From positions 124,868,001 through 124,932,000 of the forward strand of contig OZ024741.1 of NCBI GenBank assembly GCA_964016885.1: DNA of 64,000 bases, written 5' to 3'. Within the stretch, counting starts at the first letter, position 1, and every line of letters starts with the position of its first letter. Below, one piece after another: positions 9,425-57,123 of this stretch. The position numbers and the translations under genes are program-made. Source of the DNA: Eledone cirrhosa (Eukaryota). The notes beneath the pieces are model-generated. The model did no database searches, was not told where the DNA came from, and was given only the letters and a program-made list of their open reading frames with translations.

Positions 9425-9752
9425 TATATATATAGTAAAATAAAGCAAGGACAATTGGTTACTCCTTCATTACGTTTATTGGTTGGTGACGCGCGTTTCG
9501 CCACTGATCAGCTCAAGTTTCGATCTGTATCGATCTAGCCCGTCTCTGTAATCTACGGCCCATCAGAGCCCTTATAATGGTAATGAAAACATTTTCATTA
9601 CCATTGTAAGGGATCTGACGAGCCGTGGATTTCAGAGTCGGGTTAGATCTATACAGATCGAACCTTTAGCTGATCAGTGGCGAAACGCGCGTCACCAACC
9701 AATAAACGTAATGAAGGAGTAACCAATTGTCCTTGCTTTATTTTACTATAAT
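9425..9752. mobile_element. Spacer-less ~330-bp palindrome carrying a long-stem-II hammerhead (9615-9693 +, decayed copy on -)
   Basis: The symmetry centre is at about 9590. The plus strand reads CTGACGA-GCC-(~55 nt)-GGC-GAAAC-GCGC-GTC with an imperfect stem I. Short TA runs flank both ends. Confidence 0.8.
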
Positions 9753-10395
9753 ACACTCTGCCTAGCTCTACACCTCGACACAGAAGTGAACCTAAACATC
9801 AAGTTACCAATACGTATTTAATATATATGATGATATTTTGTCTCAATAAATAAGCTCAATTAACCTTGGTTCGGAGCATCAATAACTCAAGTTAAAAGAT
9901 ATATGTAAAGAGAGAAAGAAGCATATATCGTTTAAGAACCACACAGTATTTTGTACTCATATACAAAGAAAATAATATTCATGAAAATACACGTACATTA
10001 AAGTGAAAAAGTCATATCTTTCTAATGGCGCTGTTTCATAGGCTGTTAAAGCTTTTTTTGTCCCTATGTGAAGTAGAGATTTAAACAAATTTATATTTTG
10101 ATGGAGGGTGTTAACAGGCATGGAGTTGAGCTCAATGGCATAGAGAACTCAGTCGGAATTTGAGAGGTACAGATTTCAATATTCTAGAGGCTGTTGGTCA
10201 GCGTTTTCCTTTTATAAGGTGTATTTTATCATTTAGTCTAAGCTATTATTTTATATCAGCGTACGGTGTTTGCAGTTATCTTATGTGATCGAGATTATAA
10301 ACACACATACCCATGCACACACACATACACACACACACACACATGTATATATATATATATGTGTGTATATGGACACACATACATACACACACACT

Positions 10396-10433
<38 letters not shown>

Positions 10434-10439
<6 letters not shown>

Positions 10440-11027
10440 AAATCAAGGGAAAGCAAATAAAGAAAACATTTTAAAATAAATTTCAAAACATTCACTGTAC
10501 TTACTATATGTGCCTTTACCGCCGTTTCAGATCCCCAAACAAATAGATAATCCAAGCGGATTTCCATTGATAAAGAGATCCTCGTCAGAAGGCTTTTCAC
10601 TCTCAGAGAATATAAAATTCCCGAGTTCAAATTACAAACTGGCGCCATACAAAACTGCCCCAGCAAATGAATGATGAAACAATTTTGTCTAGTACCGTGT
10701 GTAAAGACTGAAAGCAAGGTGGACAGGTCAATCTCTTGCTACTAAAAATAGCAGCCGTTCAAATGACCAAAGGTTTCTCTACCGTTAGGGAGAATAATAA
10801 TAACAAAAATATGTGTTCCTACATGTCAATAATACACATAGGGATACAAGTATAGTCCGACCGTACAGTGAATTTTTTGAAATTTATTTTTAAATGTTTT
10901 CTTTATTTGCTTGCCCTTGATTTTATATGCTCTGGCGTGTTAATTTATTAACTTGTCATTGAACCACACTGGCATACGGTGGGACTATACGTGTATCCCT
11001 ATTTACATGTAGGAACACATATTGTTT

Positions 11028-11032
<5 letters not shown>
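10434..11032 (-). mobile_element. Retrozyme-like element: ~479-bp monomer plus an inverted arm spanning the end-to-start junction
   Basis: The reverse complement of 10863-11032 equals a copy of 10797-10865, then ~47 novel nt, then a copy of 10434-10500. The element has one HHR and (TA)n on both sides. Confidence 0.75.
10512..10593 (-). ncRNA. Type I hammerhead motif with extended stem II
   Basis: Reads GCCTT-CTGACGA-GGATCTC-(~40 nt)-GGGATCT-GAAAC-ggcg-GTA-AAGGC. Confidence 0.85.
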
Positions 11033-11064
<32 letters not shown>

Positions 11065-12659: not shown

Positions 12660-12782
<123 letters not shown>

Positions 12783-12837
12783 AATAAAATAAATAAGTCA
12801 AGTGTTTAAAATTTGGCTTCGTTTATTACTGCTATAT

Positions 12838-12888
12838 TGCTATATATATTTCGGTGACAGCCTTCTTTGGCTGTGACCTCTTCAGGCA
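12838..12888 (-). ncRNA. PLE terminal hammerhead (left arm)
   Basis: Reads TGC-CTGAAGA-GGTCACAGCC-aaagaa-GGCTGTCACC-GAAAT-atat-ATA-GCA. Confidence 0.85.
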
Positions 12889-14206
12889 GTTCCGAATTAG
12901 TGTGGTAGAGACAAGTACACATGTTGTTGAGGTGTTTAACTTTGTCAATACTCTGATATGCCCAGTTCCTGGTTGGGTTGTTATTTCACTGAGGAACTGG
13001 AATCATATGAATTTAAACAAACGAATTTCAGCGTCAAAGGGCCTCTTCTCCTCTCATTGGTCAGTTGTTAGAACATTCCTCAGTCAAAAGTCTATAGAAA
13101 TTCGTTCTGAGGCAAGCCAATCTGTAGTGGTTGTTCTTGTTATTGTTAGGTACATCTGAACTCTATACTTATGTTGGTAGTGGTGTTGGTGTTAGAGTCA
13201 GCTAAAAAAAATGATAAAGTGGTAGAAAGAATAAGATGGTAAAGGAACAAAATAAAATAATCGAATAAAATGTTTGTTATACCCATCTCAATGTTATAAA
13301 GATTTGTAAGGTCACTCTTCTCATTGGTCAGTTTTGAGAGCATTCCTCAGTCAAAAGTCTATAGAAATTCTTTCTGTGGTGAGGCTCCCTGTAGTGTTTG
13401 TGTCTGCTATTGTTAAGTACATCTGTCCTCTACCCATATTTTGGTAGTGTTGTTGGTGTTATGGTCAGCCTATGTCTTGCTGCTTCTGACATTTAGAAGT
13501 ATCTGTGTGTGTGTTTCTTTATCCCTCCTGCCACCATCTCCCGTGGTGGTGGTGGTGGGGAGGGGGGGTCAGTTCTGCCATGTATATGAAGAAATAGAAG
13601 GCGATAAAATGAAGAAAACAGAAAATAAATAATAAATAGAGAATAAATGAAAAATTAATGAAAAAGTAATGAAAAATGAAAATGAAAAATGAAAAATGGA
13701 AAATGGAAATGAAAAGTGAAAAATAAAAATGAAGATTCAAATAAAATAAAATGTGTGTGTGCTATAACCAATCTCAAGGTCAGAAATATGTTGGATAAAG
13801 TGGTAGGAGGAACAAGATGGTAAAAGAATAAAACGAAATAGGATAATCAAATAAAATGTGTGTGTTATATTCAATCTCAACTTAAATATAAATATGAGGT
13901 GATAAAGTGAAGAAAACAGAAAACAAATAACAAATGAATAATGAAAAATCAAAAATGAAAGATCCAGTAAAATAAAATTTGTGTGTGTTATAAAGATGTT
14001 GGCCAAATTGTAAAGGCTGTGTCAGAATCAATCTCTAGGCTATCATGGTGTCTGCTCAGTCTGGGTTGGTCCCTATGGCTTGGGGGAGTTCCCAACCTAT
14101 GGTGTTGTTACTGCCCATATAGCTTGAGGGAGGTCTGGCCGAGAGGTGTCTACATGTTCTGGAGAAGTCCCTATAGCTTGAGGGGAGTTCACATCTTATT
14201 GTGTTG

Positions 14207-16868
14207 CTACTGTCCATATATCTTGAGGAAGGTCCCGGCCCTGAGGTTCCTGCATGTCCCGAAGAAGTCGGTTCTGTGGTTTATCATGCGGCTTCCACCT
14301 CTTAGTATCTCACGGGTCTCGTTCAGACATAGTTTGCATATGCCAGATCCCCCTTTATCGGGTGGTACTTTCCTGATTATGGACCAGGCCAGAGAGTACG
14401 GGGTCCTGTCCAGCTTAAGCTTCCAGATCAGGTTGGAGAGAGTCGTACTTTTCCTTTTGGCCTCCTTATTGAAGGAATGGCGATGGTTATACCAACGGTC
14501 TTTAAAGTCCGTTGATGTGGCTCCTATGTAGAGGTGTTCGGAGTTGGTGGTTTTAACCCTACAACCATATACTAGGTTCTTCTTAAGGCATTCATTACTA
14601 AAGGGGCATGATTCGAGGTTTCTGCAGTTGCGGAGGGTAGTCGATCTCTACGTGCCTAGGGTGGGGTTCCCGTTAAGTGTTACATGGCGGTCTTCGCCCG
14701 GGCACGGTGGAGGGGGAGGGTTCCCGGGTCTGTTTGGGTTTATTGGGTGGGCACTGGGTCCCCCCCTTCTCTCCTTCCACATGGTTCTGCTGCGTGCTTT
14801 TATTGCCATCTTCTGGTTCTGTATGGTTTTTAAGCCTACTCCTATTGATGCTAGCTATGTGTTGGGCCAGATTTCTCGTGGTGGAATACGAGAGCTTCAC
14901 AGTGTGTCTGTTGAAGATATTGTGGTATCTATGGTCCCTCGGGAAGCATTTATCAAGTGCTCCAAAGAATGATCGGGCCAAGCTGTTCTTTAGGGCCGCT
15001 GAGTAGGGTGGGTTGTACCACGTGATTTTTCTGCGTCTCCTCCTATATGGGTTGGTTGGGGGCGTCGTGAGTTGATGGAGATATGTTGGCTTGCTGGTGG
15101 TTCCCCCATTGCTGCTTCTCCTTTGGGCGCTATGCGTTTTGCTATTTTCACGGCCCTAACTATGGGGTGGTCGTTGCCCGCGCTGGAAGATCTATCGTTG
15201 GGTGGTCCCCCACATGCCCTGGGGTTGGGGTCGTTGTGCCCGGGGTGGTTAGCATCACCCCTGAGACTGCTACTCATATTGGGTTTCATCTCATGGTTAA
15301 GCGTACTCGTCACCAACGCCCGTGTGGTGGTGTCGGGCTCATGGTGCTCATTCTTTTCTGTTCTGCCTGTATTGTTAGGGTTCGCCCCCTCCCGGACAAC
15401 GCGGATGTGGGTGTCCGTTGGACCATCCCCATCCCGGCGTTTCGGACTATATGTTATATTTTGACCATGTGCCGCCTTATTTAGAGCTGCGTTGTAATAT
15501 TCCGCGTTGTTATAGAAGATTTCCTTACTTGTGGACAGGCTGGAGATCCTGTCCAAGACACTCTTCAGCACGGCCTTGGTTGTGGATCTAGGGTGGTTTG
15601 ACTTGGCGTTAACCTAGACAAGTTTCTCGTTGGGCTTGTGGTAGGGGTAGTATTGTTCGGTGTTCAGGTTTAGGGTGGTGTCTAGGAAGTTAACTACCTT
15701 TCTATTTGGGTCTAGTTCGATACTGAGCCCCTGGTTCTTAAAGAAATGGCGAATACGCCTCCTCATTCCCTCCAACATATTGGTGCTGTGGTAATATACT
15801 GTGAAGAGATACGATATAATCCGCCGCCCAAGCAGGGGATTTCATCTTTTATCTGCATCAGCAGGAAGAGCCCAACCAGATCCGTTACCTGTGCTGAGTC
15901 GCTGGAGCCCATCGTGATGTCAAAGTTATTTGGCCAATCACTCCTGGTCCAAAGGTCTGCATCGAAACGGATTAAGGTCTTTCTTGCGGCGTGGATGATG
16001 CTCACCTCCTCTCGGGTTATGTCCGTATTGGACATCGCTATAAATAGGGCCTTATTGAGAACTATGGGCAAGATTGAGGAGTAGTAGCCTGCGATATCCA
16101 GTTGTATAAAGCTGGTCTTACTTTTCTCATGTAGTATCTTAAACCATTCTATTAGCTCTCCCGTGCAAGACCATTGCTGTAATCTGGTTTTTTGCCGAAG
16201 CTTGGGCAAAATCCTATCTAGTATTCTTTTACTGACGATCCCTAGGTCAGATTTGGAGGGGGCTATTAGTCTGACAGGGAGGTCGGACTCAAAGTTTGGC
16301 TTGTGATCTTTAAGGGTGATCCACGGCTCCCTTTGTTGAAATGGGGCCGTCCAGTCCTCTATGCCGAGTCCAGATATAATCCTGTAAGCTGTGGCATGAT
16401 CTCATCCAGGGTAAATCCAAATGTTTTTTTTGTAGCACTTCCTCAGTTCCCTGAGATTTAGCTTATTATACAGTTCAGTGTTCATGCTGTAGAAGTTGTT
16501 GGTTTTGACAGCATGGACACGTATTCCAGTTGTCTCTTTAAGTACTGTAATCCGGTTTCTCAGGTGTCTGTGGTATTCCTGACTTCTGGTTGTGTTTCTG
16601 GAGAATTTGAGGTTGGATATGATGTTAATCATCTGTTTTCAAACTCCTCCATTAGTCTGTTGTGGGCGGGGGGGAATTCCTCCTTGTCGAAAAAAGTACT
16701 CCATGTTTTGTGTGTTGGTAATTTATTGCGTTCCACTTTCGAAGTGGAAAGCCTTCATCTCATCCTACGGACAAAGGAGTTCGTACTCCTGATGAGATCG
16801 CTGGTGTATTCTCGTTTTTCAGGTAGGGGGATATCCTTCAGTGACGCTAAGGTTGCCAGTTTTTCCAT
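14207..16868 (-). pseudogene. PLE RT + GIY-YIG endonuclease ORF, disrupted by frameshifts and stops
   Basis: ATG at 16868. Motifs: ITLKDHKPNF..PVRLIAPSKSDLG, FIQLDIAGYYSSI, FDITMGSSDSAQV, a damaged GLYR[DD], WYNPP, CNCRN.ESCP...CL, LYIGAT, CKLCLNE. Stop at 14207. Confidence 0.9.
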
Positions 16869-16949
16869 AGTGACTTAAGTCCGCTACTGTTTGAAGCGCT
16901 CAACCCGTGGGGGAGCTAGATAAATTTTGAGTATATGTTGGTTGTATAC

Positions 16950-17555
16950 CAACCAACCAGAAGATGGCAATACAAGCACCCAGCAAAACCATGTGGAAGG
17001 AGAGAATGGGGACCCAGTTCCCACCCAAGAAACCCAAACAGACCCGGAGACCCCCACCGTGCCCGGGCGAAGACCGCCATGTAACACTTAACGGGAACCC
17101 CACTCTAGGCACGCAGTGGTTGATCACCCTCTGCAATTGCAGAAACCCCGAATCATGCCCCCTTAGTAATGAATGCCTTAAGAAGAACCTAGTATACGGT
17201 TGTAGGGTTAAAACCCCCAACTCCGAACACCTCTACCTAGGAGCCACATCAACGAGCTTTAAAGACCATTGGTATAACCATCGCCATTCCTTCAATAAGG
17301 AGGCCAAAAGGAAAATACGGCTCTCTCCAACCTGATCTGGAAGCTTAAGCTGGACAGGATCCCGTACTCTCTGGCCTGGTCCATAATCAGGAAAGTACCA
17401 CCCGATAAAGGGGGATCTGGCATATGCAAACTATGTCTGAACGAGACCCTCGAGATACTGAGAGGTGGAAGCCGCATGATAAACCTCAGAACCGACTTCT
17501 TCGGGACATGCAGGCACCTCAGGGCCGGGACCTTCCTCAAGATATATGGACAGTA
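16950..17555 (+). pseudogene. Inverted duplicate of the PLE GIY-YIG region
   Basis: ORF 16964-17335 contains CNCRNPESCPLSNECLKKNLVYGCRV...LYLGATSTSFKDHWYNHRHSF, with a frameshift near 17315. Confidence 0.88.
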
Positions 17556-18036
17556 GCAACACAATAAGATGTGAACTCCCCTCAAGCTATAGGGACTTCT
17601 CCAGAACATGTAGACACCTCTCGGCCAGACCTCCCTCAAGCTATATGGGCAGTAACAACACCATAGGTTGGGAACTCCCCTCAAGCCATAGGGACCAACC
17701 CAGACTGAGCAGACACCATGATAGCCTAGAGATTGATTCTGACACAGCCTTTATAATTTGGCCAACATCTTTATAACACACACAAATTTTATTTTACTTG
17801 ATTTTTCATTTTTGATTTTTCATTATTCATTTGTTATTTGTTTTCTGTTTTCTTCCCTTTATCACCTTATATTTATATTTAAGTTGAGATTGGTTATAAC
17901 ACACACACATTTTATTTGATTATCCTATTTCGTTTTATCAATTTATCCAACATATTTCTGACCTTGAGATTGGTTATAGCACACACACATTTTATGTTAT
18001 TTGAATCTTCATTTTTATTTTTCACTTTTCATTTCC

Positions 18037-18068
<32 letters not shown>

Positions 18069-18862
18069 TCATTTTTCATTACTTTTTCATTAATTTTTCA
18101 TTTATTCTCTATTTATTATTTATTTTCTGTTTTCTTCATTTTATTGCCTTCTGTTCTTCGTATACATGGCAGAACTGCCCCCCCCCGCTCACCACCACGG
18201 GAGATGGTGGCAGGAGGGATAAAGAAACACACACAGATACTTCTAAATGTCAGCAGCAGCAAGACATAGGCTGACCACAACAACAACAACACTACCAAAA
18301 TATGGGTAGATGTCAGATGTACTTAACAATAGCAGACACAAACAATACAGGGAGCCTCACCCCAGAAAGAATTTCTATAGACTTTTGACTGAGGAATGCT
18401 CTCAAAATGACCAATGGGAAGAGTGACCTTACAAATCTTTATAACATTAAGATGGGTATAACACACACACACACATTTTATTTGATTATTTTAGTTCATT
18501 TTGTTCCTTTACCACCTTATTCCTTCTACCACTTTATCATTTTTTTTAGCTGACTCCAACACCAATACCACTACCAACATAAGTATAGAAGTCAGATGTA
18601 CCTAACAATAACAAGAACAACCACTACAGATTGGCTTGCCTCAGAACGAATTTCTATAGACTTTTGACTGAGGAATGTTCTAACAACTGACCAATGAGAG
18701 GAGAAGAGGCCCTTTGACGCTGAAATTCGTTTGTTTAAATTCATATGATTCCAGTTCCTCAGTGAAATAACAACCCAACCAGGAACTGGGCATATCAGAG
18801 TATTGACAAAGTTAAACACCTCAACAACATGTGTACTTGTCTCTACCACACTAATTCGGAAC

Positions 18863-18913
18863 TGCCTGAAGAGGTCACAGCCAAAGAAGGCTGTCACCGA
18901 AATATATATAGCA
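18863..18913 (+). ncRNA. PLE terminal hammerhead (right arm)
   Basis: Reverse complement of 12838-12888. Confidence 0.85.
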
Positions 18914-19112
18914 ATATAGCAGTAATAAACGAAGTTAAATTTTAAACTTTTGACTTATTTATTTTATTTTTATTTTACATTACTCCGGAGTAACCAAACC
19001 AACCTGTACACTTCGTCGAGTGGTCCAATCTGCATACTGAGGTATTGGTATATAACCAACATATACTCAAAATATATATATATATATTTATATATATATA
19101 TATATATATGTA

Positions 19113-20044: not shown

Positions 20045-23000
20045 ATAAAAACAAATAACGAAACGAAATTAAATTTCGTTTCGTTTGTAACTCACATTTG
20101 TATGACTGACGCTCAAACAATTAAGTCAAAGATGTACATCCATATATGTATACTGAAATACTAGTATGTATATGAATACACACACGTATACATATGTAGA
20201 TGTACCAAGTTTTTTTTTTTCACTGATCACTTTACTGTGAGTGGCCAGCTATTCTGTATGTAAACACACAGACAAACCGGTTTTTAGAGTCATACTGGTT
20301 TTTGAGGAAACACCTTTCCTCTATTCTCCAGAAAGCCAGACAAGGAATATTGAACTAGTTTCGTTGTTGTTACAACTCATCAGCAATATTTACCTATCTT
20401 CCGGCCTCTCTAGAGAATCGTAAAAGCACATATCGCTATATGCTTTTTCTATGAAAATTAGTAGTGGGCAGACCAACTTGCATAGAGTGTGAGTAAGTAC
20501 CGGTTCAACGGAGACGATAAAAACAAATAACGAAACGAAATTAAATTTCGTTTCGTTTGTAACTCACTTTTGTATGACTGACGCTCAAACAATTAAGTCA
20601 AAGATGTACATCCATATATGTATACTGAAATACTAGTATGTATATGAATACACACACGTATACATATGTAGATGTACCAAGTTTTTTTTTTTCACTGATC
20701 ACTTTACTGTGAGTGGCCAGCTATTCTGTATGTAAACACACAGACAAACCGGTTTTTAGAGTCATACTGGTTTTTGAGGAAACACCTTTCCTCTATTCTC
20801 CAGAAAGCCAGACAAGGAATATTGAACTAGTTTCGTTGTTGTTACAACTCATCAGCAATATTTACCTATCTTCCGGCCTCTCTAGAGAATCGTAAAAGCA
20901 CATATCGCTATATGCTTTTTCTATGAAAATTAGTAGTGGGCAGACCAACTTGCATAGAGTGTGAGTAAGTACCGGTTCAACGGAGACGATAAAAACAAAT
21001 AACGAAACGAAATTAAATTTCGTTTCGTTTGTAACTCACTTTTGTATGACTGACGCTCAAACAATTAAGTCAAAGATGTACATCCATATATGTATACTGA
21101 AATACTAGTATGTATATGAATACACACACGTATACATATGTAGATGTACCAAGTTTTTTTTTTTCACTGATCACTTTACTGTGAGTGGCCAGCTATTCTG
21201 TATGTAAACACACAGACAAACCGGTTTTTAGAGTCATACTGGTTTTTGAGGAAACACCTTTCCTCTATTCTCCAGAAAGCCAGACAAGGAATATTGAACT
21301 AGTTTCGTTGTTGTTACAACTCATCAGCAATATTTACCTATCTTCCGGCCTCTCTAGAGAATCGTAAAAGCACATATCGCTATATGCTTTTTCTATGAAA
21401 ATTAGTAGTGGGCAGACCAACTTGCATAGAGTGTGAGTAAGTACCGGTTCAACGGAGACGATAAAAACAAATAACGAAACGAAATTAAATTTCGTTTCGT
21501 TTGTAACTCACTTTTGTATGACTGACGCTCAAACAATTAAGTCAAAGATGTACATCCATATATGTATACTGAAATACTAGTATGTATATGAATACACACA
21601 CGTATACATATGTAGATGTACCAAGTTTTTTTTTTTTCACTGATCACTTTACTGTGAGTGGCCAGCTATTCTGTATGTAAACACACAGACAAACCGGTTT
21701 TTAGAGTCATACTGGTTTTTGAGGAAACACCTTTCCTCTATTCTCCAGAAAGCCAGACAAGGAATATTGAACTAGTTTCGTTGTTGTTACAACTCATCAG
21801 CAATATTTACCTATCTTCCGGCCTCTCTAGAGAATCGTAAAAGCACATATCGCTATATGCTTTTTCTATGAAAATTAGTAGTGGGGAGACCAACTTGCAT
21901 AGAGTGTGAGTAAGTACCGGTTCAACGGAGACGATAAAAACAAATAACGAAACGAAATTAAATTTCGTTTCGTTTGTAACTCACTTTTGTATGACTGACG
22001 CTCAAACAATTAAGTCAAAGATGTACATCCATATATGTATACTGAAATACTAGTATGTATATGAATACACACACGTATACATATGTAGATGTACCAAGTT
22101 TTTTTTTTTCACTGATCACTTTACTGTGAGTGGCCAGCTATTCTGTATGTAAACACACAGACAAACCGGTTTTTAGAGTCATACTGGTTTTTGAGGAAAC
22201 ACCTTTCCTCTATTCTCCAGAAAGCCAGACAAGGAATATTGAACTAGTTTCGTTGTTGTTACAACTCATCAGCAATATTTACCTATCTTCCGGCCTCTCT
22301 AGAGAATCGTAAAAGCACATATCGCTATATGCTTTTTCTATGAAAATTAGTAGTGGGCAGACCAACTTGCATAGAGTGTGAGTAAGTACCGGTTCAACGG
22401 AGACGATAAAAACAAATAACGAAACGAAATTAAATTTCGTTTCGTTTGTAACTCACTTTTGTATGACTGACGCTCAAACAATTAAGTCAAAGATGTACAT
22501 CCATATATGTATACTGAAATACTAGTATGTATATGAATACACACACGTATACATATGTAGATGTACCAAGTTTTTTTTTTTTTTTTTTTTTTTTTTTCAC
22601 TGATCACTTTACTGTGAGTGGCCAGCTATTCTGTATGTAAACACACAGACAAACCGGTTTTTAGAGTCATACTGGTTTTTGAGGAAACACCTTTCCTCTA
22701 TTCTCCAGAAAGCCAGACAAGGAATATTGAACTAGTTTCGTTGTTGTTACAACTCATCAGCAATATTTACCTATCTTCCGGCCTCTCTAGAGAATCGTAA
22801 AAGCACATATCGCTATATGCTTTTTCTATGAAAATTAGTAGTGGGCAGACCAACTTGCATAGAGTGTGAGTAAGTACCGGTTCAACGGAGACGATAAAAA
22901 CAAATAACGAAACGAAATTAAATTTCGTTTCGTTTGTAACTCACTTTTGTATGACTGACGCTCAAACAATTAAGTCAAAGATGTACATCCATATATGTAT

Positions 23001-26000
23001 ACTGAAATACTAGTATGTATATGAATACACACACGTATACATATGTAGATGTACCAAGTTTTTTTTTTTTCACTGATCACTTTACTGTGAGTGGCCAGCT
23101 ATTCTGTATGTAAACACACAGACAAACCGGTTTTTAGAGTCATACTGGTTTTTGAGGAAACACCTTTCCTCTATTCTCCAGAAAGCCAGACAAGGAATAT
23201 TGAACTAGTTTCGTTGTTGTTACAACTCATCAGCAATATTTACCTATCTTCCGGCCTCTCTAGAGAATCGTAAAAGCACATATCGCTATATGCTTTTTCT
23301 ATGAAAATTAGTAGTGGGCAGACCAACTTGCATAGAGTGTGAGTAAGTACCGGTTCAACGGAGACGATAAAAACAAATAACGAAACGAAATTAAATTTCG
23401 TTTCGTTTGTAACTCACTTTTGTATGACTGACGCTCAAACAATTAAGTCAAAGATGTACATCCATATATGTATACTGAAATACTAGTATGTATATGAATA
23501 CACACACGTATACATATGTAGATGTACCAAGTTTTTTTTTTTCACTGATCACTTTACTGTGAGTGGCCAGCTATTCTGTATGTAAACACACAGACAAACC
23601 GGTTTTTAGAGTCATACTGGTTTTTGAGGAAACACCTTTCCTCTATTCTCCAGAAAGCCAGACAAGGAATATTGAACTAGTTTCGTTGTTGTTACAACTC
23701 ATCAGCAATATTTACCTATCTTCCGGCCTCTCTAGAGAATCGTAAAAGCACATATCGCTATATGCTTTTTCTATGAAAATTAGTAGTGGGGAGACCAACT
23801 TGCATAGAGTGTGAGTAAGTACCGGTTCAACGGAGACGATAAAAACAAATAACGAAACGAAATTAAATTTCGTTTCGTTTGTAACTCACTTTTGTATGAC
23901 TGACGCTCAAACAATTAAGTCAAAGATGTACATCCATATATGTATACTGAAATACTAGTATGTATATGAATACACACACGTATACATATGTAGATGTACC
24001 AAGTTTTTTTTTTTCACTGATCACTTTACTGTGAGTGGCCAGCTATTCTGTATGTAAACACACAGACAAACCGGTTTTTAGAGTCATACTGGTTTTTGAG
24101 GAAACACCTTTCCTCTATTCTCCAGAAAGCCAGACAAGGAATATTGAACTAGTTTCGTTGTTGTTACAACTCATCAGCAATATTTACCTATCTTCCGGCC
24201 TCTCTAGAGAATCGTAAAAGCACATATCGCTATATGCTTTTTCTATGAAAATTAGTAGTGGGCAGACCAACTTGCATAGAGTGTGAGTAAGTACCGGTTC
24301 AACGGAGACGATAAAAACAAATAACGAAACGAAATTAAATTTCGTTTCGTTTGTAACTCACTTTTGTATGACTGACGCTCAAACAATTAAGTCAAAGATG
24401 TACATCCATATATGTATACTGAAATACTAGTATGTATATGAATACACACACGTATACATATGTAGATGTACCAAGTTTTTTTTTTTCACTGATCACTTTA
24501 CTGTGAGTGGCCAGCTATTCTGTATGTAAACACACAGACAAACCGGTTTTTAGAGTCATACTGGTTTTTGAGGAAACACCTTTCCTCTATTCTCCAGAAA
24601 GCCAGACAAGGAATATTGAACTAGTTTCGTTGTTGTTACAACTCATCAGCAATATTTACCTATCTTCCGGCCTCTCTAGAGAATCGTAAAAGCACATATC
24701 GCTATATGCTTTTTCTATGAAAATTAGTAGTGGGGAGACCAACTTGCATAGAGTGTGAGTAAGTACCGGTTCAACGGAGACGATAAAAACAAATAACGAA
24801 ACGAAATTAAATTTCGTTTCGTTTGTAACTCACTTTTGTATGACTGACGCTCAAACAATTAAGTCAAAGATGTACATCCATATATGTATACTGAAATACT
24901 AGTATGTATATGAATACACACACGTATACATATGTAGATGTACCAAGTTTTTTTTTTTCACTGATCACTTTACTGTGAGTGGCCAGCTATTCTGTATGTA
25001 AACACACAGACAAACCGGTTTTTAGAGTCATACTGGTTTTTGAGGAAACACCTTTCCTCTATTCTCCAGAAAGCCAGACAAGGAATATTGAACTAGTTTC
25101 GTTGTTGTTACAACTCATCAGCAATATTTACCTATCTTCCGGCCTCTCTAGAGAATCGTAAAAGCACATATCGCTATATGCTTTTTCTATGAAAATTAGT
25201 AGTGGGCAGACCAACTTGCATAGAGTGTGAGTAAGTACCGGTTCAACGGAGACGATAAAAACAAATAACGAAACGAAATTAAATTTCGTTTCGTTTGTAA
25301 CTCACTTTTGTATGACTGACGCTCAAACAATTAAGTCAAAGATGTACATCCATATATGTATACTGAAATACTAGTATGTATATGAATACACACACGTATA
25401 CATATGTAGATGTACCAAGTTTTTTTTTTTTTTTTTTTTTTTTTTCACTGATCACTTTACTGTGAGTGGCCAGCTATTCTGTATGTAAACACACAGACAA
25501 ACCGGTTTTTAGAGTCATACTGGTTTTTGAGGAAACACCTTTCCTCTATTCTCCAGAAAGCCAGACAAGGAATATTGAACTAGTTTCGTTGTTGTTACAA
25601 CTCATCAGCAATATTTACCTATCTTCCGGCCTCTCTAGAGAATCGTAAAAGCACATATCGCTATATGCTTTTTCTATGAAAATTAGTAGTGGGCAGACCA
25701 ACTTGCATAGAGTGTGAGTAAGTACCGGTTCAACGGAGACGATAAAAACAAATAACGAAACGAAATTAAATTTCGTTTCGTTTGTAACTCACTTTTGTAT
25801 GACTGACGCTCAAACAATTAAGTCAAAGATGTACATCCATATATGTATACTGAAATACTAGTATGTATATGAATACACACACGTATACATATGTAGATGT
25901 ACCAAGTTTTTTTTTTTTCACTGATCACTTTACTGTGAGTGGCCAGCTATTCTGTATGTAAACACACAGACAAACCGGTTTTTAGAGTCATACTGGTTTT

Positions 26001-27228
26001 TGAGGAAACACCTTTCCTCTATTCTCCAGAAAGCCAGACAAGGAATATTGAACTAGTTTCGTTGTTGTTACAACTCATCAGCAATATTTACCTATCTTCC
26101 GGCCTCTCTAGAGAATCGTAAAAGCACATATCGCTATATGCTTTTTCTATGAAAATTAGTAGTGGGCAGACCAACTTGCATAGAGTGTGAGTAAGTACCG
26201 GTTCAACGGAGACGATAAAAACAAATAACGAAACGAAATTAAATTTCGTTTCGTTTGTAACTCACTTTTGTATGACTGACGCTCAAACAATTAAGTCAAA
26301 GATGTACATCCATATATGTATACTGAAATACTAGTATGTATATGAATACACACACGTATACATATGTAGATGTACCAAGTTTTTTTTTTCACTGATCACT
26401 TTACTGTGAGTGGCCAGCTATTCTGTATGTAAACACACAGACAAACCGGTTTTTAGAGTCATACTGGTTTTTGAGGAAACACCTTTCCTCTATTCTCCAG
26501 AAAGCCAGACAAGGAATATTGAACTAGTTTCGTTGTTGTTACAACTCATCAGCAATATTTACCTATCTTCCGGCCTCTCTAGAGAATCGTAAAAGCACAT
26601 ATCGCTATATGCTTTTTCTATGAAAATTAGTAGTGGGGAGACCAACTTGCATAGAGTGTGAGTAAGTACCGGTTCAACGGAGACGATAAAAACAAATAAC
26701 GAAACGAAATTAAATTTCGTTTCGTTTGTAACTCACTTTTGTATGACTGACGCTCAAACAATTAAGTCAAAGATGTACATCCATATATGTATACTGAAAT
26801 ACTAGTATGTATATGAATACACACACGTATACATATGTAGATGTACCAAGTTTTTTTTTTTCACTGATCACTTTACTGTGAGTGGCCAGCTATTCTGTAT
26901 GTAAACACACAGACAAACCGGTTTTTAGAGTCATACTGGTTTTTGAGGAAACACCTTTCCTCTATTCTCCAGAAAGCCAGACAAGGAATATTGAACTAGT
27001 TTCGTTGTTGTTACAACTCATCAGCAATATTTACCTATCTTCCGGCCTCTCTAGAGAATCGTAAAAGCACATATCGCTATATGCTTTTTCTATGAAAATT
27101 AGTAGTGGGCAGACCAACTTGCATAGAGTGTGAGTAAGTACCGGTTCAACGGAGACGATAAAAACAAATAACGAAACGAAATTAAATTTCGTTTCGTTTG
27201 TAACTCACTTTTGTATGACTGACGCTCA
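20045..27228 (-). repeat. Tandem array of ~15.15 near-identical 472-bp units, each with a hammerhead (non-LTR retrozyme-like)
   Basis: The ORF track gives periods of 471-473 bp, or 487-488 where the T-tract is expanded. Units differ only in T-tract length and one or two SNPs. (TA)n lies at the left end. Confidence 0.97.
20346..20390 (-). ncRNA. Minimal type I hammerhead, first of 15 identical copies (last at 26987-27031)
   Basis: Reads AATATTG-CTGATGA-GTTGT-aaca-ACAAC-GAAAC-ta-GTT-CAATATT, with a 7-bp stem I, 5-bp stem II, palindromic stem III (AACTAGTT) and a GUU triplet. Confidence 0.92.
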
Positions 27229-27398
27229 GTATGACTCTAAAAACCGGTTTGTCTGTGTGTTTACATACAGAATAGCTGGCCACTCACAGTAAAGTGATCA
27301 GTGAAAAAAAAAACTTGGTACATCTACATATGTATACGTGTGTGTATTCATATACATACTAGTATTTCAGTATACATATATGGATGTACATCTTTGAC

Positions 27399-27403
<5 letters not shown>
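27227..27403 (+). repeat. Inverted 175-bp piece of the array unit, terminating the array
   Basis: Reverse complement of the unit segment aattaagtc...agtcatactg (about 20119-20297), followed directly by (TA)n. Confidence 0.95.
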
Positions 27404-27461
<58 letters not shown>

Positions 27462-33385: not shown

Positions 33386-33940
33386 TGTTAGGTTGAGATA
33401 CAAATTTGGCTGTATTGTGCTGTGCTTTCTAGCAAAAACCCACCAGCCGTAAGTAACTTACCACACTCTTTCCAACCTGACCGCTGCTACGTCACGATTC
33501 TTAGCCATTTTTGAATGTATTCTTGGCGCGATCACTTTGGAAAATGTATTGTCTAGATTTGAGCAAACACCTGAAGAGTCCGGTGCTCGAGTTTCCGAAG
33601 TTATTGGAAATCTCAAAATGCGGACGAAACCATGGTCGAGGTAAATAAATGTATTCTCTTTTCTCCTAGTTTATTTTACACCTAATTCGGTTTAATTGAC
33701 TGTATATCTGAGCGATTACGCTGTCAAAATATTCGATACATATTCCGTCGCAGCCGACGCGAAGAGCTAGTTTTGGTTATTTGTTGGAGATTCTTTCATA
33801 GAAGCCTTATTCTTATAACCTGGTCTATTCCATTTTTTATATGGTTAATTATGCTAATTGGGAGAGGAAATGGTATATATTTTATCTGGTGATTCTATAG
33901 ACATGTTTTATAATATATAGCTCTGATTATTTAATTTATT
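33386..33940 (+). mobile_element. Diverged monomer of the 678-bp HHR family, between microsatellites; HHR core at 33571-33637
   Basis: Collinear with the reverse complement of 55680-56240 (acgtcac.attcttagccattt; ggttaattatgctaattgggagaggaaatggt). The core reads CTGAAGA-GTCCG..CGGAC-GAAAC-catg-GTC, with a weak stem I. Confidence 0.8.
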
Positions 33941-34019
33941 AACTTTTCATTGAGCCACAAGGTGACCCGTTGCAAAACACGTATATGTATATATGTATAT
34001 ATATATATATGTAAACCTT

Positions 34020-34152
<133 letters not shown>

Positions 34153-40720: not shown

Positions 40721-40749
<29 letters not shown>

Positions 40750-40752
<3 letters not shown>

Positions 40753-43398
40753 TTCAGTCGTTTGGAAGCCTCGACAATGCAAATGGGTAAATCTCCGGGT
40801 AACAAGGTCCGGTGGTGGAGAGAGAGATGTAAGTGGGTGTACGTTGAGATGCGTGGTGTGTATAAGATGTGTGAGATGTGTAGAATGAAGGGAAGAGTAT
40901 AAAGGATAAAAATAAAAATAACAACACAAGAGAGAGTTACCTTGGGAGAGATTTAATAGTCCCTATATATTTCATATTCACATCCATCAACTGGGGTTTT
41001 TTTTCCGGGGTGGGGGAAAAGGTTGTCTGTCGGACAAGTCCGGAACGCGACTTTCGCTGTTTGTGGTTTTGAATATCAGAGATAGTCGGCAGACCGCGCG
41101 TGCGCGTGAAATGGGGTCGGTCGTACAGAGGTCAGCGGCCGAATGAGGGAGTGGGATGGCGCTAGCTGTCAGTCCATTCTCTGCCTGTTTGTTAAATGTT
41201 ACTGTGTGTGTATGTGCGTGTGTTGTTGTCTCGCTTGAGTGTGTGTGTTGTGTGTGTGTTGTTGCCTTGTTCATCTGTATTGGCAGTGTAGTATGTTCGT
41301 ATGGTGGAATGCTACTGTGTGTGTGTGTAGTTGTCTCGTTTGCGTGTGTGTATGTGTGCGTGTGTTGTGTGTTGTTGCATCGCTTGTTAACTTAAACCAG
41401 CCATTTCATTTCGCTTCTCTCTGATCGGTTGTTTATTTGCGGTTGCAGTCGTTTGATAAAAAGCGCTTCCTTGATACGTAACGTTTCTTTGAGTCGCTAG
41501 AATTGTGACAATGGGCCTTCCGTCTATGTTTCCGCATTTGTCTATGTGTTTCCGGAAAGACGAGGCCCTGTTTTTAGTGTGTTCCTTGATCCGGATGTGC
41601 AAAGTTCGAATTGTGCTACCTATGTAGTATTGGTTGCACCTGTCACATTCTATCTTATGCACGACGTATGTGCGTAGTCAACAGTTAGCATGGCGTATCG
41701 GGCAGTCTCTGAGGGAGCATGCGTCAGTAGATTTTTCGGGTTTCCTGGAGAGGCATCTTCGCAGGGAGGGGCCCGAGTGGGCCAGGTGGATGTCGAGGCC
41801 CTCTCTCCGTATAGCTTTGCGGATAGCGTTGGTGGTTTGCTCGCCCAGGTGTGGCATTTTAAGGAAGCACTTGTCTTGGGTGCTTCTCTGTCTCTTGCGT
41901 CTGGTGTCTCCTATTCTGTCTGTGATCGAGGTAGGGTACCCGTTCGTCTCCAGCACCTCGAGGAATCGCTTGGTATGAGTGACACTACTCGCGCGATCAC
42001 TGCATCTGTTTTTGATACGCTCGATCTCGTTCGTGATGTATCCTCTTTTGGCACTGTTAGGGAGGGCGGACTTGTAGTGAACGAATAGGTCCCTGCGGGC
42101 TGCCTTTCTGTAGAAGTTGCAGTGGATCCCTCCTTGTTCCGTGATGTTGATTCGGAAGTCGAGGAGGGCAAGTGACCCGTCTTCGTTGGGGTGTTCAACA
42201 CTGAAGTCAATGTTCTCGTCCGTGCTGTTGAACGTCTCATAGATTCTGTTCGCCGTGTCTTGGGATGATGTGAGGATGAGGATATCGTCCACGTATCTTG
42301 AGAAAAAGGCTGCGGCGTTGGGGTGGCAGGCGTTGAGTGCCTTGCATTCGAGGTTGTCCATGTAGGAGATCGCTAGCACACCTGATAGGCTTGATCCCAT
42401 GGGCAATCCCGAGGTTTGTTGGTATATTTGGTCAAGGAATCCGAAGTAGGTGTTGTCGACGACGATGGATAGGAGTTTGTGGATGTCAGTGGTGGTGAGC
42501 CCGAAGCAGTGTAGGTCGGTGGATTGGACGCGTTCTATTAGTACATTGACGGCCGGGAGTGCCGGGACCGAGGTGTAGAGAGCGACTACATCAAGGCTGA
42601 AGGCATATCTGTTATTCCTTCTGGTGTCGGGATCCATTTGATGCAGGCGCTTCAACACCTCCTCGGAGCTGTTAACGTGTCCCGGCAAGGTATCTAAGAT
42701 GGGTTTGAGTATTCTGGCTAGGAGCCATGACATTTTGTAGAGTGGTCCCTCCACGCTCGATACGATGGGCCTGATTTTTAGGTCAGGTCCCTGTTAGTGT
42801 GTTTTCACGAGGTGGTAGAAGGCGGGTAGTCTGCTGTTCCTCGTGAGGAGGTTGTATCTCAGCTTCTTCGGGAGCTTCCGCCGGTCGCAGATGTTGGTCC
42901 AGGCGGAGTTGATGTGTTCTTCTATCTGCGCGGGAGTGATTCCTGTGACCTTGGAGTAGAGGTTGTCATCGTCAATGTGTTGGAGGGCCAGGGTGTTGTA
43001 GGCCTCTCTGCTGCTGACCTCTGTACGACCAACCCCATTTCACCAGCACGCGCGGTCTGCCGAATACCTCAGATATTCAAAACAACAAACAGCGAAAGAC
43101 GCGTTCCGGACTTGTCCGACAGACAACCTTTTCCCCCACCCCGGAAAAAAAAAACCAGTTGATGTATGTGAATCCGAAATATATAGGGACTATTAAATCT
43201 CTTCCAAGGTAAATCTCTCTTGTGTTGTTATTTTTATTTTTATCCTTTATACTCTTCCCTTCATTCTACACATCTCACACATCTTATACACACCACGCAT
43301 CTCAACGTACACCCACTTACATCTCTCTCTCCACCACCGGACCTTGTTACCCGGAGATTTACCATATTCATTGTCGAGGCTTCCAAACGACTTAAAGA
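40750..43398. mobile_element. 5'-truncated Penelope-like element (minus) with an inverted ~390-bp terminal repeat
   Basis: Segment 40755-41140 is the reverse complement of 43010-43395. RT and EN lie between, and TA tracts flank the element. Confidence 0.9.
41390..43005 (-). pseudogene. PLE reverse transcriptase and GIY-YIG endonuclease, truncated and disrupted
   Basis: PAFYHLVKTH*..LKIRPIVS, AFSLDVVALYTSVP, YQQTSGLPMGSSLS, FSRYVDDIL, LALLDFRI, FYRK; then IECDRCNQYYIGSTIRTLHIRIKEH. This is a different PLE lineage from 12772-19075. Confidence 0.92.
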
Positions 43399-43735
43399 TA
43401 TTTACTTATTGTTCCACAATGCTTCAAGCTAACTTCAATACTCTCATATATATATATATATATTAGAAAATGAGTTATTTTTTCCAAAATCAAAAAAGAC
43501 GACATGTCCTACACGAGTGAAAGTATAAGGAAAAAAGATGAAATCGAGAATGCAACTGGAGTCTTTTTAAGAATATTTATTTGGTTCCTTTACCGGTTTT
43601 GCAGTTCTTATGCTTTTCAAAAGTAGAATTGAGATGGAGGGTTTGTGGTTTTTCTCGCATCTAGTTGATGTTCGAATGTTACTTCTGTTTTATGCGGATA
43701 AAAGTGGCTCGAAATGGTAGGGGTTTTTTTTAAAG

Positions 43736-52839: not shown

Positions 52840-53667
52840 TTACCTTCCAAAAATCCTGCGGAAGGTTTTCGAGGTTCTATGTTGACAGTTGCTGAAAAAA
52901 TCTGCTCTTCTATTAATTAATAGGGGGCCGCCTCTAATAATATTGAAAGTTTCAACTATACATAAATTGCACACGCCAGTGCTACCGTTATAAGGTTGGG
53001 CTGAACAAACTATGGACCAGGATAAGGAGTGCTCTATATTCTGACGTTTAAGCTTCCAGACTAATTCCGAAAGTGCCGTGCTATTTTTCTTATCAAATCT
53101 ATTAAAGGTATGGCGGTGAATATACCATCTATCCTTAAATTCCGTGGCAGTTGCCCCAACATACCTAAAGGTTCTATCAGGAGTGGAGACCTTACAGTCG
53201 TAGACTATGTTTTTGGTAAGGCATTTCCCAGCCAAGGGGCAGGTGGCGGTACTTCTGCAGTTGCATTTTTTGCTATCAATCTGGGTGGTTCTGGATGGAC
53301 CACGGTACCTTTGGAGTCGGGTCTCAGTTCCAGTCTGCTCTATGGGTAAATTCCCTGGGGTAGGGGCGACCCGACTCGCTTCACGTGTATGAGTCAGTTC
53401 CTCAATAGAGCTGCCATTGTTCCTGCCATGCCTAATTCCCTCATTGGCTGTCTTAAGTCTACTATAATTCATCTTAGCTATATTCTGAGCTATGTTTCTA
53501 GTTGTGGAGTAGGACAGCTTGATAGTATTTCTATTGAATATTTTATAATATCTGTGCGATCTAGGGAAGCATTTGTCTAAGGCTCTAAAGAATAGCTTAG
53601 CTATACTAGTGGTCAGGCCAGTGGAGTAAGGGGGATTATACCACAGGACTTTTCTGGTCCGAACCAC
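52840..53667 (-). pseudogene. PLE C-terminal linker and GIY-YIG endonuclease (open 275-aa fragment, no RT)
   Basis: WYNPPYS, FNRNTIKLSYST, KCNCRSTATCPLAGKCL, VYDCKV..RYVGAT..EFKDRW..HRHTF, CNLCIVE, LINRR...CQHR. Confidence 0.9.
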
Positions 53668-54314
53668 CCTAGAATAGTCACTAACGGTATTACCAAAAGC
53701 GTCTCTAGTAGAATTTCAGGACTATCTTCCAATGTAGATACCTTTAATAAGATCTCGAATTACTATAATAGCGCCTAGGAACGCGCAGGTCATAGCGAGA
53801 GAATCTCATTCAAACGTCCATTAAATAGAAGTAACTTTGTTCGCGATAGCTTAGGCTTAAATCGTGACACTCTAGTTAACAGCAGGCGGGATACGAGGGA
53901 GGATTCACATAGTCTTCATGCTGTACTGCCGCCTAGTCCCAATGCTGTCGGTACTAATAGAAACAGCCACCCAGGTAATAATACTGGGTCTGAGCAACAT
54001 AACGCCAGCGGAAACTCTAATAGTAACCTTAATTGTGGAACCGATAGAACTACCGCTGAACGCAGTATGGAACGAGGGTCGAGTAGGGTGAATTGGGTCA
54101 GGTGTAGCAGACGCATAGGTGATACAACCCCAGCTATCGAGGGTAAACCCAATAGCCGCACGGGTGGGTACACCGCCCTGGAGACTTGGGACGATTCCGA
54201 ACACAATCGTGACACCCCAGGACACCACCGACCCACAGGTAATTTCCAGTTACAATATACTAGTAACTACTAGGGAGACAGGTAGTTCTAATATAGTTAG
54301 TAGGAACAGGAGAC

Positions 54315-54895
54315 ATCGGACCAGAAAAGTCCTGTGTATAATCCCCCTTACTCCACTGGCCTGGCAACTAGTATAGCTAAGCTATTCTTTAGGGCCTTAG
54401 ACAAATGCTTCCCTAGATCGCACAGATATTATAAAATATTCAATAGAAATTCTATCAAGCTGTCCTACTCCACAACTAGTAACATAGCTCAGAATATAGC
54501 TAAGATGAATTATAGTAGACTTAAGACAGCCAATGAGGGAATTAGGCATGGCAGGAACAATGGCAGCTCTATTGAGGAACTGACTCATACAAGTGAAGTG
54601 AGTCGGGTCGCCCCTACCCCAGGGAATTTACCCATAGAGCAGACTGGAACTGAGACCCGACCCCAAAGGTACCGTGGTCCATCCAGAACCACCCAGATGG
54701 ATAGCAAAAAATGCAACTGCAGAAGCACCGCCACCTGCCCCTTGGCTGGGAAATGCCTTACCAAAAACATAGTCTACGACTGTAAGGTCTCCACTCCTGA
54801 TAGAACCTTTAGGTATGTTGAGGCAACTACCACAGAATTTAAGGATAGATGGTATAATCACCGCCATACCTTTAATAGATTTGATAAGAAAAATG
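54315..54895 (+). pseudogene. Inverted, 3'-truncated duplicate of the GIY-YIG region
   Basis: ORF 54334-54945 is nearly identical to 52840-53667 up to FDKKN, then fuses to the terminal repeat. Confidence 0.88.
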
Positions 54896-55124
54896 GCTTC
54901 ACAATCCATCTATCTCTTATTGAAACAAGTGTCGTGATTAAATGATTGATTGGAATTTTACCTTGCCTTCGGATTTTCATTTTGATACTTATACTCCGTT
55001 TTACATCATCTAGCTGTTCCCTCGAATGGAATTGGAGATATACAAAAGCGTGGAGAATTTAATATTGCTAACATAAAGTTATTGGACCATTTTACACAAC
55101 CAATAATGCACCTTAATATATAAC

Positions 55125-55222: not shown

Positions 55223-55984
55223 CGGAAAAAATGAAACGATATTTCATTTCCCACTCTTAGTACGGCTGTTACTTAAATATAAGTATGTACACGTACATAC
55301 ATATATGTATACCGACATACAGTAGTATGTATATATATATATACATACATGCACACATATATATATGCACGTATGGATTCACCGAACATTTATTATAATG
55401 CTCGGTGTGTTTGTAAACAAACATCCCGTATTAAGCCGTAGTGTCTAGCAACCACCGTTGCTCGTTTGTTCAACACTGACAAAGGATATATATATATATG
55501 TAGGACCCCGAGGGCTGACCTAGTTAACGGAGATTTATAGTAAACTATTTAAAATCTTTTGTGGATATATATATATATATATAAAGATTTACATATACAC
55601 AAACTAGACAAAGTCACAGAAATATATGTGTTTTGGCAACCATTCACGATGTGTCTCAATGAAGAATTAATAAATTAAATAATCAGAGCAATATACTATA
55701 AAGTATGTCCATGGAATCATTTGATAATATATATACACCATTTCCCCTCCCAATTAGCATAATTAACCACAGAAAAAATCAATTAGACCAGGCTATAAGA
55801 TTAAAAGGCACCTATGAAGAAATAGTAGATAAATAAACGACAGCAATCTCTTCGCGGCCAACCGCCATAGAATTTCACCCAACATTTCAACAGCACGTGG
55901 AAATCGATAAAATATACCGTCAACCATACACAATTAGGTATAAAATTAAAGTTAGCAGAAATGCTTATACACATACCAGGATTG

Positions 55985-56065
55985 TGTCCCAACCCTCGGG
56001 TTTCGTCGCATTTTGATATATCCTATTAAGGATAAAATCTCGAGCTTCGAACTCATCAGGAGACA
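55985..56065 (-). ncRNA. Type I hammerhead with extended stem II
   Basis: Reads TGTCTC-CTGATGA-GTTCG-(~40 nt)-CGAC-GAAACCC-ga-GGGTT-GGGACA. Confidence 0.8.
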
Positions 56066-56718
56066 AACTCGTTAGGACAGATTATTTTCTAAAGTGGTCC
56101 CCGCCAGACACGAATTCAAAATGGCTAAGAATTGTGACGTGGCAGTGGTCAAGTCAGAAATAATGTGATTGGTTGCTTACGGCGAGTGGGTTGGTTACTA
56201 GAAAGCGCAGCCCAATATTGCCCAAATTGCATCTCAACCTTATGGGAGATTATTAAATATAAAGATTTACATATACACAAACTAGACAAAGTCACACAAA
56301 TATATGTGTTTGGCAACCATTCACGATGTGGCTAAATGAAGAATTAATAAATTTATCAATGAAGAATTAATAAATTAAATAATCAGAGCAATATACTATA
56401 AAGTATGTCCATAGAATGATAATATATATACACCATTTCCTCTCCCAATTAACATAATTAACCACACAAAAAATCAATTACACCAGGCTAGAAGATTAAA
56501 AAGCACCTATGAAGGAATAGTAGATAAATAAACGACAGCAATCTCTTAGCGGCCAACCGCCATAGAATATTTACCCAAAATATTTACCCAACATTTACTC
56601 GCCGTAAGCAACCAATCACATTCTTTCTGACTTGACAACTGCCACGTCACAATTCTTAGCCATTTCGAATTCGTGTCTGGCGGGGACCACTTTAGAAAAT
56701 AATCTATCCTAACGAGTT

Positions 56719-57086: not shown

Positions 57087-57123
<37 letters not shown>

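What the first reader, a model, noticed from the sequence alone, without database searches (positions are those of the whole stretch)
10434..11032. Inverted arm preserves an end-to-start junction: footprint of a circular or multimeric ~479-nt template
Read in reverse, the arm at 10863-11032 runs through the end of the direct segment, then ~47 nt absent from it, then into its start (atataaaatcaaggg). The template therefore joined tail to head, and it holds exactly one intact HHR. The left insertion boundary coincides with an ATATA in the monomer, a microhomology with the TA target.
Basis: partly seen in the sequence, partly recalled or inferred. Interest (0 to 1): 0.75.

Follow-up and report, generated by a model that had tools for sequence, protein, structure and literature searches.

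The report
Two-armed hammerhead retrozyme insertion
This is an old copy of a 474-base non-coding repeat with a predicted self-cutting RNA, inserted in a TA repeat as two back-to-back arms ending at two fixed sites, likely written by a borrowed Penelope-type enzyme and probably from an RNA circle, a known kind of element.

Summary
The inverted arm reads the end of the direct segment, a 46-nt bridge, then its start. The bridge belongs to a dispersed ~474-nt family (bridge in 26 of 30 top copies). The copies are not random circular permutations. Their 3' ends sit at two fixed sites 112 nt apart (A = 10435, B = about 11033). Of 73 head-to-head insertions, 55 have both ends at A or B, and 52 of these pair A with B. 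A protein-coding Penelope-like family in this window shows the same two ends and tail-to-head junction, so the junction alone does not prove a circle. Indirect support for a circle: arms read through the ribozyme cut site without piling up there. Also, a young sister family (69% identical) has arms of up to 10 identical units, with insertion-specific variants fixed on both arms. Against: this family's arms never exceed 1.84 units, a few sister variants mark only some units, and no RNA data were available. Verdict: a new family of a known kind (animal non-LTR retrozyme, non-autonomous Penelope-like element). The scan has already noted this architecture in several other families and genomes.

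The parts
10424..10439 (.). Left (TA)n target tract, after a (CA)n run; its last ATATA is shared with the element end
   Evidence: sequence
10435..10865 (-). Arm A: 431 nt of the unit in ribozyme-sense orientation, 5'-truncated at 10865, 3' end at fixed site A (10435)
   Evidence: 100 of 230 family arms end at site A
10512..10593 (-). Predicted type I hammerhead: stem I 10593-10589 with 10516-10512, core 10588-10582 and 10528-10525, 7-bp stem II with a long loop, 2-bp stem III (palindrome broken in this copy)
   Evidence: not found by Rfam; activity untested
10516..10517 (-). Predicted self-cleavage site (after GUA)
   Evidence: hammerhead core geometry
10863..10865 (.). Head-to-head junction: 3-nt microhomology shared by the 5' ends of the two arms
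   Evidence: 27 of 44 simple A+B pairs overlap by 1-13 nt
10863..11033 (+). Arm B: 171 nt in ribozyme-sense orientation; runs through site A and ends at fixed site B
   Evidence: 89 of 230 family arms end at site B
10929..10974 (+). 46-nt bridge: first part of the tail between sites A and B; its motif is shared with at least two other hammerhead families
   Evidence: 1405 exact matches of a 29-nt degenerate motif genome-wide, 0 for the reversed control
10975..11033 (+). Second part of the tail, identical in register to the 5' end of arm A (10865-10798): the tail-to-head junction
11031..11060 (.). Right (TA)n target tract
   Evidence: sequence

Best explanation
The element is a non-coding ~474-nt repeat unit with one hammerhead motif, inserted in a TA tract as two back-to-back arms that end at two fixed sites, likely copied by a Penelope-type reverse transcriptase/endonuclease supplied in trans, and probably from a ligated circular monomer RNA. 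Shown: the head-to-tail unit, two fixed 3' ends 112 nt apart, A+B pairing, TA targets, short junction microhomology, read-through of the cut site, and the same geometry in a protein-coding Penelope-like family. Inferred steps: (1) tandem copies are transcribed and the hammerheads, probably acting as dimers, release monomers that are ligated into circles; (2) the borrowed enzyme nicks both strands of a (TA)n tract; (3) one DNA end primes at site A and the other at site B; (4) each cDNA runs on around the unit and stops at random; (5) the two cDNA ends are joined through a few shared bases, giving the inversion. In this copy arm A stopped after 431 nt and arm B after 171 nt. The short arms of this old family may be long arrays that later collapsed, or may reflect a less processive enzyme.
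For: A+B pairing in 52 of 55 head-to-head insertions with both ends at A or B (p 8e-13 against independent pairing); 18 more of the 73 had an unclassed end; in the position-sampled subset 36 of 39. 139 of 195 A or B ends are followed by (TA)4 within 12 nt. The coding PLE family (RT Pfam E 9e-11) has two 3' ends, A+B in 4 of 4 loci with both arm ends in view, and a tail-to-head junction in 12 of 30 loci. Two internal initiation sites, nicking of both strands and an AT-rich target were shown in vitro for an anole PLE (PMC11167929). 18 of 230 arms cross the cut site twice (two are one duplicated locus). There is no excess of 5' ends at the cut site (7 against 6.7 expected). Duplicated stretches inside one insertion share rare variants (27 against 3.2 by chance within arms, 53 against 6.1 between arms) and show no recurrent first-unit/second-unit difference (112 against null 115.5, p 0.66). 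Sister family (69% identical over 488 columns): in 21 young insertions, arms reach 10.1 identical units, and 9 variants seen in only one insertion are fixed in all its units (5 insertions), on both arms in L298, L304 and L305. Stem pairs are kept, with a G-C to A-U change in 17 of 142 copies and compensatory changes in the sister family.
Against: In this family no arm exceeds 872 nt (1.84 units), and the stopping rate about doubles after one unit (A arms 4.1 to 9.0 per kb, p 0.0009; B arms 5.6 to 11.0, p 0.014). Only 4 of 44 simple A+B pairs fit on one circle without overlap, so two templates or strand displacement are needed. Three 15-nt duplications and one 14-nt deletion start at the cut site in about 186 passes, hinting that some templates were nicked there. 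In the sister family three substitutions mark some but not all units (L301 one, L308 two), which a single monomer circle does not give. 'Seen in one insertion' is relative to only 21 sampled. The anole PLE uses uncleaved linear RNA in vitro (PMC11167929). No coding partner with matching ends was found. The strongest circle evidence is from the sister family, not this one.
Confidence: 0.62

Rival explanations
1. Same Penelope-type two-site priming, but the template is an uncut linear read-through transcript of a tandem genomic copy, with no circle.
For: Uncleaved RNA is the main substrate in vitro and no RNA-seq ends were found at the cut site for the anole PLE (PMC11167929). The coding PLE here has the same junction. 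This family's arms stay below two units and stop faster after one. Variants in some units only (L301, L308).
Against: Variants fixed across up to 11 units on both arms need a single-unit bottleneck. There is no recurrent unit-order difference in this family (low power). A linear-only cycle cannot regain length, while 10-unit arms exist.
Confidence: 0.2
2. The template is the ribozyme-cut linear monomer; the enzyme reaches its 5' end and jumps to the 3' end of the same or another molecule, mimicking a circle.
For: 3 of 4 complex tandem duplications of 9 nt or more found in all arms start at the cut site, although the unit has 106 comparable 4-nt repeats. One 14-nt deletion begins there.
Against: About 182 of 186 passes are clean and 5' ends do not pile up at the cut site. 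No change at the cut site in any multi-unit sister array. The duplicated stretch is flanked by a 4-nt direct repeat, so slippage or pausing at the fold could also make it.
Confidence: 0.13
3. The structure arose at DNA level, by fold-back replication or unequal crossover in a satellite, without reverse transcription.
For: The junction has short microhomology, and local tandem expansion is proposed for retrozymes (bioRxiv 10.64898/2026.07.22.740005).
Against: Copies are dispersed on many contigs with two fixed 3' ends, variable 5' ends, TA flanks and A+B pairing shared with coding PLEs.
Confidence: 0.05

Closest known systems
Metazoan non-LTR retrozymes (PMC7229834: passages and Discussion read; bioRxiv 10.64898/2026.07.22.740005: parts 1-3 of 5 read)
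   Same: Non-coding head-to-tail unit with one type I hammerhead, G+C 36%, short palindromic stem III. Circular RNA intermediates and mobilisation by PLEs are proposed for this class.
   Different: Mostly dispersed, 5'-truncated, half-inverted copies under two units rather than arrays. The unit is larger than the ~300 nt typical in the first paper. Loop II is long. Circular RNA and cleavage are not shown here.
Insertion units of endonuclease-bearing Penelope-like elements (Penelope/Poseidon, Neptune, Nematis, Hydra; PMC8557442 passages; PMC11167929 parts 1-2 of 4)
   Same: Partial tandem, inverted 5'-truncated copy, tail at one end only, hammerhead near the 3' end, (TA)n targets, two initiation sites bounding the tail.
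   Different: No reading frame. The tail is 112 nt rather than 30-40 nt. No coding parent was found. The near-strict A+B pairing was not stated in the passages read.
Non-autonomous Chlamys elements such as MRC1 (PMC8557442 passage)
   Same: Non-coding PLE derivatives with pseudo-LTRs and multicopy head-to-tail insertions.
   Different: Green algal, mostly without canonical hammerheads, and they resemble a known autonomous family at the 3' end.
L1 twin priming (recalled, no call)
   Same: Both target strands prime, leaving an inversion with junction microhomology.
   Different: Here both arms start at fixed internal sites and overlap on the template (arm B runs past site A in 35 of 44 pairs); there is no poly(A) tail.

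Membership tests
Metazoan non-LTR retrozyme | Type I hammerhead in each unit | tested here: met
   Core pattern intact in 103 of 142 copies; stem pairs kept, one compensatory change in 17 of 142; not found by Rfam
Metazoan non-LTR retrozyme | Short head-to-tail tandem units, low G+C | tested here: met
   Period 471-477 nt, G+C 36%, 51 of 230 arms longer than one unit
Metazoan non-LTR retrozyme | No protein coded | tested here: met
   Longest ATG frame 53 and 71 aa in two natural tandems; the 147-aa stop-to-stop frame has no Pfam match
Metazoan non-LTR retrozyme | Two consecutive units with complete hammerheads (criterion for an 'active' copy in the 2026 preprint) | tested here: not met
   This copy has one hammerhead. 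Some family copies have two in tandem (for example L008, L017, L020, L079), so the family meets it and this copy does not
Metazoan non-LTR retrozyme | Self-cleavage and accumulation as circular RNA | not testable with these tools
   No RNA run was listed; needs bench work
Penelope-like element (autonomous) | Reading frame with RT and GIY-YIG endonuclease | tested here: not met
   None inside the unit
Non-autonomous Penelope-like element | Partial tandem, inverted 5'-truncated copy, tail at one end | tested here: met
   73 of 140 insertions are head-to-head; 52 of 55 classed pairs are A+B
Non-autonomous Penelope-like element | AT-rich or (TA)n target | tested here: met
   139 of 195 ends followed by (TA)4
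Non-autonomous Penelope-like element | Ends homologous to a coding PLE of the same genome | tested here: inconclusive
   No match to 30 loci of one coding family; only a weak T-rich match (69% over 77 nt, E 0.001) to the PLE at 12771-19070; other coding families not surveyed
L1-type twin priming (recalled) | The two arms come from adjacent, non-overlapping parts of one RNA | tested here: not met
   Arm B is longer than the A-B distance in 35 of 44 pairs

The most novel reading that the evidence does not exclude
A paired Penelope-type enzyme primes small RNA circles from both ends of a cut TA tract, one end always at site A and the other at site B, and rolls round them for up to ten turns. The young 485-nt sister family records this directly, and old families such as this one are the collapsed remains of such arrays. 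That would be genomic proof of rolling-circle retrotransposition of animal retrozymes and would also explain the tail and inverted repeats of Penelope elements.
Probability: 0.45. Interest if true: 0.7.

Novelty: new member of a known kind. Interest (0 to 1): 0.42.

Why it matters
How retrozymes are written back into genomes, and how Penelope-like elements make their tandem, inverted and tailed insertions, are both open questions (PMC7229834 Discussion; PMC8557442 passages). The A+B rule links the two initiation sites seen in vitro to the two ends of an inverted insertion. The very young sister family, with units identical across many contigs, offers a defined RNA and two defined start sites for a direct test of circular templates. 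This particular copy is old and probably inactive, so its value is as one data point and as the lead to the young family.

Tried and rejected
Rfam: no hammerhead hit for this motif; the microRNA hits are microsatellite artefacts. RNA evidence: no RNA holder was listed, which says nothing about expression. Three runs of unrecorded kind, one sample, held as contigs, show the end-to-bridge joint in 2 of 3, which genomic tandems explain. Pile-up of 5' ends at the cut site: rejected (7 against 6.7). Random circular permutation of ends: rejected. One circle copied without overlap: fits 4 of 44 pairs. U6/U2-type promoter module, a lead from note e1-9512178: no local alignment beat shuffled controls at p below 0.05 for 5 U6 and 2 U2 upstream regions. 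Spliced form of a possible intron: 0 hits in 173 loci. Coding parent: none among 30 loci of one coding PLE family; no PLE protein match was seen joined to the unit in the element loci except one chimera, L036; the 57 sister and motif loci gave only scattered PLE fragments, not followed up. Local folding of the hammerhead alone is not better than shuffles (z -1.2); a whole natural unit is (z -3.6, 0 of 100 shuffles). Paper searches listed nothing that states the A+B pairing. Older Penelope papers cited by those read were not seen, nor were any supplements, so the rule may be in print.

Full report
Observation. The insert lies between a (CA)n(TA)n tract and a (TA)n tract. Self-comparison gives two inverted matches: 10863-10928 against 10435-10500 (63 of 66) and 10975-11033 against 10798-10865 (79.7% over 69 columns with a 9-nt gap). 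A 46-nt bridge lies between them. A type I hammerhead lies on the minus strand at 10593-10512 with a predicted cut at 10517/10516. Rfam misses it. Among 142 family copies, 103 match the intact core pattern, most keep a palindromic stem III that this copy has lost, and one stem II pair changes from G-C to A-U in 17. A related family keeps the fold with compensatory changes in stems I and II and a longer palindrome. In ribozyme-sense orientation the insert is two arms joined at their 5' ends by a 3-nt overlap: arm A (431 nt, 3' end at 10435) and arm B (171 nt, 3' end at about 11033).

The family. The 3-Gb genome holds 2683 first-look candidates for the direct segment (40 scored) and 295 exact matches of one 24-mer, against 0 for the reversed control. 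I collected 173 loci: 60 best BLAST hits, 83 from the first 100 listed places of the 24-mer, and 30 of the 81 places of a 28-mer. They reduce to 148 clusters with 230 arms, or 140 insertions after merging pieces split by indels. The bridge is present in 26 of the 30 best loci; the other four are truncated before it. The period is 471-477 nt, G+C is 36%, and no long frame exists. Of 230 arms, 100 end at site A and 89 at site B, 112 nt further on; 41 end elsewhere, some because of subfamily divergence. 5' ends are scattered. So the copies are not free permutations of a circle: they have two fixed 3' ends.

The pairing rule. Of 140 insertions, 73 are head-to-head. 52 pair A with B, 2 are A+A, 1 is B+B, and 18 have an unclassed end (p 8e-13 for 52 of 55). 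The position-sampled subset gives 36 of 39 classed pairs, with 13 unclassed. Junctions of 44 simple pairs overlap by 1-13 nt in 27, are blunt in 4 and carry extra bases in 13; 139 of 195 A or B ends run into (TA)4. A coding PLE family from the same window (RT; 30 loci) also has two 3' ends. It pairs A with B in 4 of 4 loci with both ends in view, and shows its tail running into the next unit in 12 of 30. This matches the published PLE anatomy of partial tandems, an inverted truncated copy and a tail at one end (PMC8557442, passages). It also matches the two internal initiation sites and two-strand nicking shown for an anole PLE (PMC11167929, parts 1-2 of 4).

Circle or multimer, in this family. 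51 of 230 arms exceed one unit, the longest is 872 nt, and 18 cross the cut site twice. 5' ends do not pile up at the cut (7 against 6.7 expected), so the template was usually continuous there. Duplicated stretches within an insertion differ by 6.7% (within arms) and 7.1% (between arms), against 11.6% and 11.4% to the median other copy; they are closer in 37 of 40 and 71 of 82 comparisons. They share rare variants about eight times more often than chance and show no recurrent unit-order difference. Both arms thus come from one template lineage. Against a plain circle: stopping doubles after one unit, and only 4 of 44 pairs fit one circle without overlap. Three 15-nt duplications and one 14-nt deletion start at the cut site among about 186 passes. 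These data do not decide the question. Some apparent 5' ends near unit positions 200-206 and 331 are alignment breaks in older subfamilies, which adds noise to the stopping rates.

The sister family. A colinear 482-485-nt family, 69% identical, shows 16 A+B pairs among 18 head-to-head insertions as scored by script; the one A+A is probably a truncated alignment. Its youngest branch has identical units on many contigs. In 21 insertions chosen from those best hits, arms reach 10.1 units and 9 of 11 head-to-head cases are A+B. Among variant calls covered by three or more units, 33 mark one unit of one insertion, 9 are fixed in all units of a single insertion (five insertions; on both arms in L298, L304 and L305), 32 are fixed and shared between insertions, 2 mark one unit but recur elsewhere, and 5 mark some units. 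Of these 5, one is a 2-nt insertion counted twice, one is a homopolymer indel, and three are substitutions in L301 and L308. Fixation across up to 11 units on both arms needs a one-unit bottleneck, which excision and ligation of a monomer would supply; homogeneous source arrays are the alternative. The three partial substitutions need another route, such as a dimer circle, two templates or later DNA-level change. This raises the circle to the likeliest reading, by homology, for the family in this finding.

Comparison and novelty. The element fits animal non-LTR retrozymes (PMC7229834, passages and Discussion) and their proposed origin from PLEs (bioRxiv 10.64898/2026.07.22.740005, parts 1-3 of 5). 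A circular template for more-than-unit copying was proposed in 2014 (PMC4209133, passages). Six searches listed no paper that states the A+B rule; older Penelope papers and all supplements were not seen. Earlier notes of this scan describe the same two-armed architecture in other families of this and other genomes (none near this place). They are unchecked notes, not support. Three gave leads: errors at the cut site (partly seen here), a U6-like promoter (not found here) and private variants in young arrays (seen in the sister family). The coding partner was not found, and no RNA run was available.

Verdict. Real; a new family of a known kind. Penelope-type priming at two fixed sites is well supported (about 0.9). 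A circular template is likely but unproven (about 0.6) and rests mainly on the sister family. Interest 0.42; the most novel reading has probability about 0.45 and would merit 0.7.

Noticed in passing
L282, L289-L308 (for example G000:C1:149205028-149210848): Very young 485-nt sister family, 69% identical to this unit, with units identical across many contigs, arms of up to 10.1 units, and 9 A+B pairs among 11 head-to-head insertions. The best target for bench tests.
   Followed up: yes
window 20045-27404: Array of 15.2 near-identical 472-nt units with one hammerhead each and a 178-nt inverted arm; no BLAST match to this family.
   Followed up: partly
window 12771-19070: Broken PLE with RT-like and GIY-YIG-like frames, 2-kb inverted arms and a hammerhead-like motif; one arm ends at a T-rich site and the other carries a further ~90-nt tail. 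Domains judged by eye; no Pfam hit.
   Followed up: partly
window 40744-43460: PLE with a 371-aa RT frame; large young family (110 of 110 scored matches at 91% or more), two 3' ends about 50 nt apart.
   Followed up: yes
window 33390-34038 and 55565-57092: A third hammerhead family shares the bridge motif; motif spacing is 648 and 675 nt in L287 and L288.
   Followed up: partly
window 9431-9830 and about 760-1020: Two more head-to-head palindromes, each with a hammerhead motif on both arms.
   Followed up: no
window 52840-54945: Head-to-head pair of PLE 3' ends with endonuclease-like frames.
   Followed up: no
L034, L042, L062, L170: A ~190-nt SINE-like repeat sits at or next to site B in four copies, with a 16-nt duplication in L170.
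   Followed up: no
L036:894-1697: Three tandem pieces of a PLE linker reading frame are joined directly to this unit just upstream of the hammerhead, a possible template-switch chimera.
   Followed up: partly
window 10504-10499 (minus strand) and the tail: A splice-donor-like GTAAGT lies 12 nt after the cut site, followed by about 150 nt without AG in L009; no spliced copy was found in 173 loci.
   Followed up: partly
L138, L139: One insertion duplicated with its flanks about 239 kb apart; not independent copies.
   Followed up: yes
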